Below, one piece after another: positions 49,345 through 50,112 of a stretch of 64,000 nucleotides of DNA. Made by a program: the position numbers and the translations under genes. Each line of letters begins with the position of its first letter. The stretch's first letter is position 1. Under the pieces are notes generated by a model, which saw nothing but the letters and a program-made list of their open reading frames with translations, did no database searches and was not told where the DNA came from. The DNA is taken from assembly GCA_965645245.1 (NCBI GenBank), contig OZ287074.1, positions 992,001 to 1,056,000 of the forward strand, given 5' to 3'. The DNA comes from Massalongia carnosa. Taxonomy: Eukaryota.

Positions 49345-50112
49345 CTAGTATTTGATACTAGTGGACTTGGGCATGGATGAGGTTTTGGTGGTCTCCTTCT
49401 GGGTATTGGAAGACGTAGTGGACTTGGTGACGGTCACGGGCTTGCTGGTTTGCTCTTTTTCGGTAACGGTCACGGTCTTGGTCTCCTCTTTGGTCTTGGT
49501 CTCCTCCTTGGTCTTGGTCTCCTCCTTGGTCTTGGTCTCCTCCTTGGTTTGGACAACGGTCACGGTCTTGGCAGTTGGAGTGACGGTGACAGTCTTGGCG
49601 GATGGAGTGACGGTGACAGTCTTGGCGGATGGAGTGACGGTGACAGTCTTGCCAGACTCAGAGACAGTGACAGTCTTGGCGGTTGGGGTGACGGTGACAG
49701 TTTTGCCAGACTCAGAGACGGTGACAGTCTTGGCGGTTGGAGTGACGGTGACGGTTTTGCCAGACGCAGTGACAAACACGGTAGTTGTCTTACCAGACGC
49801 AGTGACATACACGGTCTTCTTGTCCTCGTCGGTAATGGTTTTGGTCTTGATGTCGGTAAGTGTTTTCGTGTCCGTGTCGGTGATAATCTTCGTCTGGTAT
49901 TTGTCGTCGGTGACCGTCTTCGTCACAGTCTTGGTCTCGTACTTGATGACGGTGGAGTAGTAATCATTATCGTTGGGAATCGCTACAGGGTTGGCATTTA
50001 CGATGCTAGGAATCATGATTCAGTATCGCCATCCTTCTAATCATGGATGCGCTCAAGATTCATACCTCAAGCTCAGGAGAGCGAGCGAGGCAAGCTGGGG
50101 AAAGGTATACAT
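49345..50112 (-). CDS. Secreted Thr/Val/Lys-rich tandem-repeat protein (235 aa), function unknown
   Basis: Exon 1 (50066-50112) MYTFPQLASLALLSL, intron 50006-50065, then SIVNA/NPVAIP, completing a signal peptide. About ten KTVTV(TP[T/S]A or SESG) 9-mers and four KEETKT hexamers follow. No Cys and no hydrophobic GPI tail. Confidence 0.85.

What the first reader, a model, noticed from the sequence alone, without database searches (positions are those of the whole stretch)
49345..50112. Secreted Cys-free KTVTV 9-mer repeat protein: candidate beta-solenoid or functional amyloid, possibly ice-active
Seen: once the intron missed by the ORF track (50006-50065) is removed, the protein has a clear signal peptide. 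The mature chain is almost wholly alternating Thr-x-Thr-x strands joined by short turns (KTVTV-TPTA, -TPSA, -SESG), about 10 units encoded by 27-bp and 54-bp duplications, followed by KEETKT x4. It has no Cys, no catalytic domain and no GPI tail. Established: regular TxT ladders form the ice-binding faces of insect antifreeze and bacterial ice-nucleation beta-helices, and T/V-rich strands drive amyloid formation in fungal adhesins. Inference: this is a self-assembling extracellular matrix, adhesion or ice-nucleating protein. Fungal and lichen ice nucleators are proteinaceous but poorly characterised. A simple O-mannosylated mucin-like stalk is the mundane alternative.
Basis: partly seen in the sequence, partly recalled or inferred. 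Interest (0 to 1): 0.7.

Follow-up and report, generated by a model that had tools for sequence, protein, structure and literature searches.

The report
Orphan secreted Thr-Val repeat protein, lichen fungus
This is a real, transcribed fungal gene for a small secreted protein built from nine-residue Lys-Thr-Val-Thr-Val repeats with no detectable relatives; it is most likely a sugar-coated surface or matrix protein, and nothing found here links it to ice.

Summary
On the minus strand, a 47-nt first exon, a 60-nt GT..AG intron (50065-50006) and a 661-nt second exon encode a 235-aa protein. It has a signal-peptide-like start. It has no Cys, Trp, His or Arg, no Pfam domain and no GPI-like tail. There are about ten KTVTV-type 9-mers followed by KEETKT x4.

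A probable RNA run from a related organism holds contigs of this gene, including a spliced 3'-UTR intron in the gene's orientation. The coding intron itself was not covered.

No true homologue turned up in any search; every inspected hit was an unrelated short-period repeat.

AlphaFold2 (AF2), run without an alignment, gives a moderate-confidence beta-solenoid resembling beta-rolls. An antisense-frame control does not fold. But AF2 is documented to invent such solenoids for repeats, mucins included.

Best reading: a lineage-restricted, O-mannosylated, Lys-rich secreted matrix or surface protein (0.5). A folded Thr-ladder beta-roll is possible (about 0.2). Ice activity is unsupported (about 0.06). 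Interest is modest.

The parts
50066..50112 (-). Exon 1: start codon, 15 codons of a hydrophobic signal-peptide-like leader, plus two bases of a split Ser codon
50006..50065 (-). Coding intron, 60 nt, GTATGA...CCTAG. It holds an in-frame TGA if retained. Inferred, not covered by RNA contigs.
   Evidence: no cover in X6
49345..50005 (-). Exon 2 coding part, through stop TAG 49347-49345
49819..49992 (-). Mature N-terminal part (aa 21-78). Degenerate alternating T-x-T strands rich in D and K. AF2 pLDDT below 50.
49546..49818 (-). Core array (aa 79-169): two long units, seven exact 9-mers (KTVTV plus TPTA, SESG or TPSA) and one KTVTV-VQT unit. 42.9% Ser+Thr, net charge +8.
49474..49545 (-). KEETKT x4 (18-bp tandem repeat, 96% matches)
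49348..49473 (-). C-terminal tail (aa 194-235). 47.6% Ser+Thr, hydrophilic to the end, no GPI-like signal. It carries 4 of the 5 amino-acid differences from the lichen-metagenome variant.
49252..49314 (-). 3'-UTR intron, 63 nt, GTAAGT...CTAAT...CAG, starting 30 nt after the stop. It is removed in one contig of run X6.
   Evidence: record 20, joint 49250->49314, 'cut +1'; sequence
50247..50254 (-). TATATAAA, a candidate TATA box about 135 nt upstream of the ATG (untested)
   Evidence: read

Best explanation
This is a lineage-restricted gene of a lichen-associated ascomycete. It encodes a 235-aa non-enzymatic protein that is most likely secreted.

Inferred pathway. The leader targets the chain to the ER and is probably cut before residue 21. 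The Ser/Thr-rich mature chain (43% in the core, 48% in the tail) is O-mannosylated there. It is then released as a soluble or loosely wall-bound glycoprotein. None of the known covalent wall-anchoring signals is present: no GPI signal, no Pir repeat, no Cys.

Inferred function. It would act as an extended, beta-prone, Lys-rich (net +10) matrix, coat or adhesion polymer. The repeated amphipathic K-T-V-T-V strands and regularly spaced lysines could bind anionic wall or matrix polysaccharides or neighbouring cells. Repeat number may tune its length.

Shown here: gene structure, transcription and strand, repeat anatomy, constraint on the KTVTV strand, and absence of known domains or relatives.

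Inferred only: secretion, glycosylation, location and function.
For: Gene reality.
- One contig of run X6 removes a canonical GT..AG intron (49314..49252) in the gene's orientation. Other X6 contigs cover 49314-49426, 49490-49537 and 49564-49818.
- The lichen-metagenome variant X4 differs in the CDS by substitutions only. Its single indel, at 49196, lies outside the CDS.
- In the seven exact 9-mers, 3 of the 5 KTVTV codon columns vary at DNA level and every change is synonymous. All amino-acid change sits in the four turn positions. Summed over the 21 unit pairs, pN/pS is 0.45.

Secreted, mucin-like character.
- The leader has a hydrophobic stretch and small residues at -3 and -1.
- 114 of 216 20-aa windows hold at least 40% Ser+Thr, including a continuous stretch over residues 78-170 and another over 190-235.
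- That matches the definition of fungal Ser/Thr-rich regions predicted to be hyper-O-glycosylated, which about half of fungal secretory proteins carry (PMC3579731, abstract).
- The N-terminal part, the KEETKT block and the tail fall on the disordered side of the charge-hydropathy boundary and have low AF2 confidence.
- The nearest language-model clusters are fungal low-complexity proteins: one auto-named 'Zonadhesin' from Ascomycota at 0.88, and Als tandem repeats at 0.79. Both are below the 0.9 lead threshold.
- All 5 codon differences from X4 are conservative replacements (T34S, Q201E, S225T, M227V, I233T). This suggests constraint on composition more than on exact sequence.

No enzyme or known domain.
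Against: - No signal-peptide or O-glycosylation predictor, and no proteomic data, were available. Secretion and glycosylation are inferred.
- The leader has no positively charged n-region.
- The coding intron on which secretion depends is not covered by RNA contigs.
- The core array (aa 79-169) lies on the folded side of the charge-hydropathy plot: H 0.518 against a boundary of 0.445.
- In the core, unit length is strictly kept, the strand residues are invariant, and AF2 gives pLDDT 60-83 where an antisense control gives 37-46. That is more order than a plain mucin stalk needs.
- The 5:0 replacement-to-silent count is tiny and could equally reflect relaxed or positive selection.
Confidence: 0.5

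Rival explanations
1. The core folds into a small beta-roll type beta-solenoid, with two 9-mers (18 residues) per coil. Val3 and Val5 of each strand pack inside, and Thr2, Thr4 and Thr6 form flat outward ladders on both faces. It would serve as a rigid structural, adhesive or water-ordering module, without necessarily being ice-active.
For: - AF2 without an alignment places strands at exact 9-residue spacing (residues 84, 93, 102 ... 138 of the exon-2 protein). pLDDT is 60-83 over about residues 80-190 and pTM is 0.52.
- The 11 best of 48,161 chains compared are almost all beta-helices or beta-rolls. Examples: CAP C-terminal domain, Z 8.4, rmsd 3.1 over 125 residues; CyaA RTX blocks, Z 7.6, rmsd 4.0 over 133.
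- The antisense frame of the same repeats stays coil at pLDDT 37-46.
- The 54-bp super-repeat alternates two turn types, TPTA and SESG.
- KTVTV is invariant while its codons vary.
- The core lies on the folded side of the charge-hydropathy plot.
- Thr-rich repeats are reported to favour beta-hairpins (PMC11936462, abstract).
Against: - 4 of the 5 AF2 models have mean pLDDT 44.7-48.2.
- Z of about 8 is what the tool reports as the typical best value for models without a true match.
- Foldseek finds nothing at E <= 0.001 among 56 rows.
- AF2 produced beta-solenoids for 32 of 78 random perfect repeats and a confident one for mucin 22, where ESMFold and RFAA predict disorder (PMC11795689).
- A Lys at the start of every strand would stack as uncompensated charge ladders, a feature that paper flags as implausible (inference).
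- There would be only about 5-7 coils, with no capping elements and no Cys staples.
- Dense O-mannosylation of the Thr faces is expected in a fungal secretory pathway.
Confidence: 0.2
2. It is an ice-binding or ice-nucleating protein. The Thr ladders of a folded or self-assembled array would order water, giving antifreeze-like activity, or nucleation activity after aggregation, in a lichen.
For: - TxT and TxTxT are enriched over shuffles.
- The DNA occurs in a run labelled lichen metagenome.
- Lichen and Fusarium nucleators are described as proteinaceous, cell-free and still unidentified (PMC12978214 passages; PMC9501429 passages).
- The top Foldseek row is the spruce budworm antifreeze protein, but at E 0.4 and TM 0.09-0.12, which is not significant.
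Against: - No Pfam match to any ice-related family. No PDB sequence match below E 0.048.
- The one identified class of fungal nucleators has 16-residue InaZ-type coils with TxT, SLT and YGS motifs, 23-42 coils, and Cys caps. Here the period is 9 or 18 residues, the array would give at most about 7 coils, and there is no Cys.
- The Thr residues are likely glycosylated.
- TxT enrichment follows automatically from any alternating Thr/Val repeat.
- No expression data under cold conditions.
Confidence: 0.06
3. It is a functional amyloid or amphipathic beta-sheet film former, analogous to hydrophobins or repellents. One Val face and one Thr face per strand would let chains assemble at hyphal surfaces or air-water interfaces in the thallus.
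For: - There is strict polar/apolar alternation in K-T-V-T-V-T.
- Beta-strand prediction.
- CsgA fibril and bactofilin appear among the structural neighbours, at Z 6.0 (rmsd 8.8) and 5.2-5.3.
- Cell-wall proteins and hydrophobins are reported as upregulated in lichen thalli (10.1101/2024.08.16.608140 passages).
Against: - Each 5-residue beta-prone stretch is flanked by Lys on one side and Pro or Glu on the other. Such residues classically oppose aggregation (established 'gatekeeper' concept, recalled, not tested).
- Net charge is +10.
- There is no Cys pattern (so not a hydrophobin) and no Kex2 sites (so not repellent-like).
- The CsgA match has rmsd 8.8.
Confidence: 0.1
4. It is a symbiosis-related, repeat-containing secreted effector aimed at the photobiont or the lichen microbiome, not a structural protein.
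For: - It is small, has a signal-peptide-like leader and no detectable relatives, and is missing from the protein collections searched although a neighbouring gene's product is present.
- It lies about 4.4 kb from two degenerate Tc1/mariner-type transposon copies.
- Its tail changes quickly between close variants.
Against: - There is no Cys, unlike most apoplastic effectors.
- Nothing points to a target.
- All of the above features also fit a surface glycoprotein.
Confidence: 0.08
5. It is not a functional protein-coding gene: a transcribed minisatellite whose repeat happens to keep frames open.
For: - The repeat keeps long ORFs open in other frames and on the other strand.
- The product is absent from the protein collection although the neighbouring protease of the same 2.44-Mb contig is present.
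Against: - A start codon, hydrophobic leader and canonical in-phase intron precede the ORF.
- Silent-only variation in the KTVTV codons.
- The frame is kept in the X4 variant.
- A spliced transcript exists in the same orientation.
Confidence: 0.06

Closest known systems
Fungal Ser/Thr-rich, hyper-O-mannosylated secreted and wall repeat proteins (for example the Als central tandem repeats, flocculins, mucin-like proteins)
   Same: Signal peptide, tandem Thr-rich repeats, no enzymatic domain, at least 40% Ser+Thr over long stretches (definition from PMC3579731), possible repeat-number variation. Language-model neighbours are of this kind.
   Different: No sequence relationship: Pfam Candida_ALS is not hit. 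The unit is much shorter (9 aa against 36 aa for Als, recalled). It has a strict K-T-V-T-V alternation with Lys in every unit. There is no GPI signal and no N-terminal adhesin domain.
RTX beta-roll (nonapeptide repeats, two per coil, calcium-bound)
   Same: 9-residue period with an 18-residue super-repeat. The AF2 model aligns to CyaA RTX blocks at Z 7.0-7.6.
   Different: None of the Gly/Asp calcium-binding consensus is present (consensus recalled). The origin is eukaryotic and secretion would be via the ER. The match is at background Z.
TxT-ladder ice-binding beta-solenoids (insect antifreeze proteins; bacterial InaZ and the InaZ-derived fungal nucleators of Mortierellaceae)
   Same: Regular T-x-T arrays on predicted beta-strands.
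   Different: The period is 9/18 aa rather than 12, 15 or 16. There are no Cys staples, no SLT/YGS motifs, far fewer coils than the 23-42 of fungal nucleators, and no significant sequence or fold match.
Ustilago-type repellents and other repeat-containing secreted fungal proteins
   Same: A secreted protein made almost entirely of short tandem units with a possible surface role.
   Different: There are no Kex2 (Lys-Arg) processing sites, and no Arg at all, so the units are not released as peptides. Properties of the comparison family are recalled, not tested here.

Membership tests
InaZ-type ice-nucleation proteins (bacterial, and Mortierellaceae fungal INpros) | Tandem 16-residue coils carrying TxT, SLT and YGS motifs (PMC12978214 passages) | tested here: not met
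   The period is 27/54 bp, i.e. 9/18 aa. TxT is present, but there is no SLT or YGS.
InaZ-type ice-nucleation proteins (bacterial, and Mortierellaceae fungal INpros) | Long solenoid: 23-42 coils in the fungal proteins, 50-100 repeats in InaZ | tested here: not met
   About 10-11 nine-residue units, which is at most about 5-7 coils at 18 aa per coil.
InaZ-type ice-nucleation proteins (bacterial, and Mortierellaceae fungal INpros) | Profile match to the ice-nucleation repeat family | tested here: not met
   It is not among the 6 Pfam rows listed at E <= 10. HMMER filters drop most matches above about E 0.1.
InaZ-type ice-nucleation proteins (bacterial, and Mortierellaceae fungal INpros) | Measured ice-nucleation activity | not testable with these tools
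   Needs droplet-freezing assays.
Insect beta-helical antifreeze proteins (Tenebrio and Choristoneura types) | TxT ladder on a beta-helix stapled by disulfides (features recalled) | tested here: not met
   TxT is abundant (35), but there are 0 Cys. The Foldseek top row 1m8n_B has E 0.4 and TM 0.09/0.12, which is not significant.
DUF3494-type fungal and bacterial ice-binding proteins | Profile match to the family domain | tested here: not met
   No such Pfam row. That this family is the main fungal ice-binding domain is recalled.
RTX beta-roll | Gly/Asp-rich calcium-binding nonapeptide consensus (recalled) | tested here: not met
   The units are KTVTV plus TPTA, SESG or TPSA. Gly occurs only in the SESG/ASG turns and the nine-residue units hold no Asp.
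RTX beta-roll | Two-sheet roll with two 9-mers per coil | tested here: inconclusive
   The AF2 model aligns to 6sus_A (Z 7.6, rmsd 4.0, 133 aa) and 9cse_A (Z 7.0). The model is of low to moderate confidence and Z is at background.
Fungal Ser/Thr-rich hyper-O-glycosylated secretory regions | At least 40% Ser+Thr over tens of residues in a secretory protein (PMC3579731 abstract) | tested here: met
   114 of 216 20-aa windows reach 40% or more, including stretches over residues 78-170 and 190-235. The signal peptide is inferred from pattern.
Fungal Ser/Thr-rich hyper-O-glycosylated secretory regions | Actual O-mannosylation | not testable with these tools
   Needs glycoproteomics or a mass shift after beta-elimination or mannosidase treatment.
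GPI-anchored fungal wall proteins | C-terminal hydrophobic GPI-attachment signal | tested here: not met
   The last 30 residues are hydrophilic; the hydropathy of the final blocks is -1.2 to -1.9.
Hydrophobins | Eight conserved Cys (recalled) | tested here: not met
   0 Cys.
Candida Als tandem-repeat family | Profile match to the Als repeat | tested here: not met
   No Pfam row. The Atlas feature score is 0.79 with 136 of 256 shared features, below the lead threshold.
Repellent-type (Rep1-like) processed repeat proteins | Kex2 dibasic sites between repeats (recalled) | tested here: not met
   No Arg and no Lys-Arg or Arg-Arg site.
Curli-type functional amyloid | Gln/Asn-ladder repeats of about 20 aa forming a beta-solenoid fibril (recalled) | tested here: inconclusive
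   8enq_A gives Z 6.0 but rmsd 8.8 over 98 aa. The unit length and composition differ.

The most novel reading that the evidence does not exclude
The KTVTV array is a new, eukaryote-born beta-roll with two nonapeptides per coil, a Val core and Thr ladders on both faces. A lichen-forming fungus would secrete it to organise water or ice at the hyphal surface. That would make it a second, independently evolved class of fungal ice-binding or ice-nucleating protein, and a first gene candidate for the unexplained proteinaceous nucleators of lichens.
Probability: 0.06. Interest if true: 0.85.

Novelty: new variant of a known kind. Interest (0 to 1): 0.33.

Why it matters
If the ordinary reading holds, this is one more lineage-specific secreted Ser/Thr-rich repeat protein. 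It is useful mainly as an example of a real, transcribed gene that is missing from the protein collection even though its neighbour from the same 2.44-Mb contig is there. It also adds a candidate component of the lichen extracellular matrix, whose proteins are poorly known.

It would matter more if the core really folds. A 9+9-residue Thr/Val beta-roll without calcium or disulfides would be a new minimal solenoid design. The genes behind lichen and Fusarium ice nucleators are still unknown, so any concrete, cheaply testable candidate has some value. No evidence here ties this gene to ice.

Tried and rejected
- **Whole-genome search of the window's assembly.** No genome is held, so paralogues could be sought only inside the window. 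None was found.
- **Word-indexed protein search with the exon-2 protein.** It gave 1 hit at E <= 0.01 among 8000 scored candidates, an unrelated repeat protein.
- **The same search restricted to the non-repeat N-terminal 64 residues.** There were 12 candidates and none reached E <= 1.
- **Exhaustive HMMER search of 1.84 billion representatives.**
  - It gave 35 hits at E <= 0.001, 4 at E <= 1e-10 and 0 at E <= 1e-30.
  - All 35 matched only within query residues 31-166, the repeats.
  - The 9 of 35 whose sequences I read were unrelated short-period repeat proteins. The other 26 were not read.
- **Metagenome scan.** I read 2 of the 4 (L001, L003). By the table, the other two (L002, L004) match the same query residues at the same identity. 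Both were low-complexity matches in unrelated ORFs.
- **PDB sequence search.** The best E was 0.048.
- **Foldseek against PDB.** 0 of 56 rows had E <= 0.001.
- **Earlier-findings look-ups.** Nothing was returned.
- **Exact look-up of the ORF-only 223-aa product.** It is not in the collection.
- **Sequencing runs.** No RNA holder is listed. Run X6 is only guessed to be RNA. Its contigs do not cover 49847-50051, so the coding intron is untested.
- **Homo-trimer prediction of residues 60-195.** The verdict was 'no answer' (score 0.00 against a mark of 0.32) and the controls were not run. The tool also noted that the chain's own fold was uncertain (pLDDT under 50) in at least one ESMFold2 run. This is neither evidence for nor against self-assembly.
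- **Paper PMC11138219 on Alaskan lichen nucleators.** It is not held, so its properties are known to me only through the citing passages.
- **Literature searches for a lichen mycobiont nucleator gene.** They listed no paper identifying one. I did not and could not search the literature by peptide motif.
- **Supplements.** None were opened.
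Full report
**1. What is there**

The finding's coordinates bound a two-exon coding sequence on the minus strand.
- The ATG is at 50112. Exon 1 (50112..50066) encodes MYTFPQLASLALLSL and the first two bases of a split Ser codon.
- A 60-nt intron follows (50065..50006, GTATGA...CCTAG).
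- Exon 2 (50005..49345) continues with IVNANPVAIP... and ends at TAG 49347-49345.
- The spliced CDS is 708 nt and 235 codons.
- If the intron stays in, the upstream ATG meets a TGA after 19 codons (read). The only other start is then the ATG at 50016, inside the intron, which gives a 223-aa product without a hydrophobic leader. The secreted reading therefore depends on this splice.

I had no signal-peptide predictor. The leader is judged by pattern: a 12-residue hydrophobic stretch, too short for a membrane span, with Val at -3 and Ala at -1 before residue 21. The n-region has no positive charge.

**2. Composition and repeats**

The protein is 28.5% Thr, 14.5% Lys and 12.8% Val. It has no Cys, Trp, His or Arg, no N-glycosylation sequon, no dibasic Arg site and a hydrophilic C-terminus.

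Tandem Repeats Finder reports:
- 27 bp x8.1 and 54 bp x4.0 (88% matches) at 49556-49773;
- 33 bp x2.2 at 49745-49815;
- 18 bp x4.4 (96% matches) at 49474-49552.

At protein level the order is:
- KTVYVTASG, then KTTTVFVTASG;
- seven exact nonamers (TPTA, SESG, TPTA, SESG, TPSA, TPSA, TPTA after KTVTV);
- KTVTV-VQT, then KEETKT x4, then KTVTVT followed by a Ser/Thr/Lys tail.

The 58 residues before the array carry the same T-x-T alternation in degenerate form.

TxT occurs 35 times against 19.8 +/- 3.1 in 2000 shuffles. TxTxT occurs 17 times against 5.8 +/- 2.5.

**3. Is it a real gene?**

Four lines of evidence say yes.

(a) Run X6 is guessed to be RNA and comes from a related organism.
- It has a contig that joins 49250 to 49314. 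With the alternative cut, this removes 49252-49314.
- On the minus strand that is a textbook GTAAGT...CTAAT...CAG intron, beginning 30 nt after the stop codon.
- A spliced junction in the gene's orientation shows transcription of this strand and supports the run being RNA.
- Other X6 contigs cover parts of the coding region (49314-49426, 49490-49537, 49564-49818). None covers 49847-50051, so the coding intron is untested.

(b) A run labelled lichen metagenome (X4) carries a variant.
- Within the CDS the listed differences are substitutions only. Its single indel lies at 49196, outside the CDS.

(c) Among the seven exact nonamers, three of the five KTVTV codon columns vary at DNA level and every change is silent.
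- All amino-acid differences fall in the four turn positions.
- pN/pS summed over the 21 (non-independent) pairs is 0.45.

(d) A third X6 contig matches exon 1 only (50066-50115, 7 mismatches) and departs from the window exactly at the exon-1 boundary.
- Its next 8 letters start neither with GT nor with the window's exon 2, but they would again complete a Ser codon.
- I read this as a spliced paralogue with the same intron position. It is a weak hint that the boundary at 50066 is real.

**4. Relatives**

No true relative was found.
- The word-indexed search gave one weak hit (E 3.8e-5), an unrelated repeat protein.
- Restricting the search to the non-repeat N-terminal 64 residues gave 12 candidates and no score.
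- The exhaustive HMMER pass over 1.84 billion representatives gave 35 hits at E <= 0.001 and none at E <= 1e-30. All 35 matched only within query residues 31-166. The 9 whose sequences I read are animal-like or bacterial-like proteins with their own short T/V/P/S repeats.
- The metagenome scan gave 4 confirmed loci. The two I read are low-complexity coincidences.
- Pfam and PDB sequences give nothing significant.

Two caveats apply.
- The neighbouring aspartic protease finds its own product at 100% identity on a 2.44-Mb contig, but its next-best hit is only 34% identical. Close relatives of this organism are therefore barely sampled, and 'orphan' partly reflects that.
- The same result shows that this genome's predicted proteins are in the collection while this gene's product is not. 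It was apparently never annotated.

**5. Organism and neighbourhood**

No genome is held for the window.
- Gene structure (short GT..AG introns with CTAAT-type branch sites) is that of an ascomycete.
- The stretch is held at 0.97 of sampled words by three runs of one coded organism, and at 0.66 by a lichen-metagenome run.
- The best named relative of the neighbouring protease is from the lichen fungus Letharia columbiana, at 30% identity.
- I therefore treat the source as a lichen-associated ascomycete and go no further.

Neighbouring features:
- Downstream lie two degenerate Tc1/mariner-type transposase copies, at 41863-43257 and 43584-44973.
- There is an ORF combining acetoacetate-decarboxylase-like and FAD-binding matches at 46415-47914.
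- Upstream is a pepsin-like protease at 55262-56944.

**6. Structure**

AF2 without an alignment gave mean pLDDT 57.8 and pTM 0.52.
- Residues 1-62 of the exon-2 protein are below pLDDT 50.
- Six-residue strands recur every nine residues through the array, with block means of 60-83 over about residues 80-190.
- The other four models average 44.7-48.2.

Comparison with solved structures:
- Foldseek found nothing at E <= 0.001. Its top row, a spruce budworm antifreeze protein, has E 0.4 and TM about 0.1 and means nothing.
- The all-against-representatives aligner shows what the model looks like: a beta-helix or beta-roll. The best matches are the CAP C-terminal domain (Z 8.4, rmsd 3.1 over 125 residues), RTX blocks of adenylate cyclase toxin (Z 7.6), and then MinC, bactofilin and a CsgA fibril. 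The tool states that Z 7-8 is the typical best score for models without a true match.

As a control I folded the antisense reading frame of the same repeats. Its repeat part stays coil at pLDDT 37-46. The solenoid is therefore not produced by periodicity alone.

Against this stands Pratt et al. 2025 (PMC11795689; I read the abstract and sections 3.2.1 and 3.2.8).
- AF2 classified 32 of 78 random perfect-repeat sequences as beta-solenoids, often with high confidence.
- It does the same for human mucin 22, where ESMFold and RoseTTAFold predict disorder.

The AF2 model therefore cannot separate 'Thr-ladder solenoid' from 'mucin'.

Simple physics is split.
- The core (aa 79-169) lies on the folded side of the charge-hydropathy boundary (H 0.518 against 0.445). 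The N-terminal part, the KEETKT block and the tail lie on the disordered side.
- An 18-residue coil made of two nonamers is geometrically reasonable, as in RTX rolls.
- But a Lys at the start of every strand would stack as an uncompensated charge ladder. That is my inference, and it is the kind of feature Pratt et al. flag as implausible.

**7. Most likely mechanism**

The chain enters the ER, and its Ser/Thr-rich stretches are O-mannosylated.
- 114 of 216 20-residue windows hold at least 40% Ser+Thr, continuously over residues 78-170 and 190-235.
- Such regions occur in about half of fungal secretory proteins and are predicted to be hyper-O-glycosylated (PMC3579731, abstract).

With no GPI signal, no Cys and no Pir-type motif (the motif is recalled), the protein should be released or held non-covalently. 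Its net charge of +10, with a Lys in every unit, suits binding to anionic wall or matrix polysaccharides.

I therefore rate 'glycosylated, extended, beta-prone matrix, coat or adhesion protein' at about 0.5. Compatible points:
- The five amino-acid differences from the X4 variant are all conservative replacements, four of them in the tail.
- There is a possible three-unit (81-nt, in-frame) length variant in X6. That contig could also be a k-mer assembly collapse.

**8. The ice and amyloid ideas**

The only identified fungal ice nucleators are InaZ-derived proteins of Mortierellaceae. One source was a culture from a Peltigera lichen.
- They have 16-residue coils bearing TxT, SLT and YGS motifs, 23-42 coils, and Cys caps.
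- The same authors found no such genes in ice-active Fusarium (PMC12978214, passages).
- Fusarium candidates remain hydrophobins and unknown secreted proteins (PMC9501429, passages).

The present protein fails every testable defining feature of InaZ-type, insect-type and DUF3494-type ice binders (see the membership table). It would offer only a few nanometres of Thr surface, and that surface is probably glycosylated. Its TxT excess follows automatically from the Thr/Val alternation. I put ice activity at about 0.06.

For amyloid or film formation, the amphipathic strands are suggestive. But each five-residue strand is fenced by Lys and by Pro or Glu. The homo-trimer prediction returned no answer and counts neither way.

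**9. Verdict**

It is a genuine, transcribed, apparently unannotated gene for an orphan repeat protein with a signal-peptide-like leader and an unusually regular K-T-V-T-V nonamer.

It belongs to the known kind 'fungal secreted Ser/Thr-rich tandem-repeat proteins' but to no known family, so I class it as a new variant of a known kind.

The beta-solenoid reading is open (about 0.2). The ice-active reading is unsupported but cheaply testable. Interest is 0.33.

Noticed in passing
window 49252-49314 (minus strand): A 63-nt canonical intron lies in the 3' UTR, starting 30 nt after the stop codon. It is removed in one contig of the probable RNA run X6.
   Followed up: yes
window 49622-49702: One X6 contig skips exactly 81 nt (three 27-bp units, in frame) with 0 other mismatches. 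This is either a repeat-number variant in the related organism or a k-mer assembly collapse across near-identical units.
   Followed up: partly
window 50066-50115: An X6 contig of 130 nt matches only exon 1 (7 mismatches in 50). It diverges exactly at the exon-1/intron boundary into sequence that is neither the intron nor exon 2 of this gene. It is probably a spliced paralogue sharing the leader exon. No paralogue lies inside the window.
   Followed up: partly
window 41863-43257 and 43584-44973 (plus strand): Two diverged copies of a Tc1/mariner-type transposase (HTH_Tnp_Tc3_2 and DDE_3 matches on the first). The first is interrupted by an in-frame stop. The second is split over three overlapping frames. 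Pfam was run on the first copy only.
   Followed up: partly
window 46415-47914 (plus strand): A 499-codon open frame combines the C-terminal end of an FAD-binding monooxygenase domain (E 2.2e-4, below cut-off) with an acetoacetate-decarboxylase-like domain (E 3.8e-11). It may be a multi-exon or fused gene.
   Followed up: no
window 55262-56944 (minus strand): A pepsin-like aspartic protease (Pfam Asp, E 1.7e-45) with a Ser/Thr-rich C-terminal extension. Its own product is in the protein collection at 100% identity on a 2.44-Mb contig, while the next-best hit is only 34% identical.
   Followed up: partly
window 49345-50112: The gene's product is absent from the protein collections although the neighbouring protease from the same contig is present. 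It was apparently missed by the assembly's annotation.
   Followed up: yes
window 57879-59798 (minus strand): A 639-codon open frame with a Lys/Glu/Asp-rich C-terminal half and no Pfam match at E <= 0.001.
   Followed up: no
window 48382-48851 (minus strand): Pro/Ser-rich open frames lie just downstream of the gene's 3' end. Whether they are coding was not examined.
   Followed up: no
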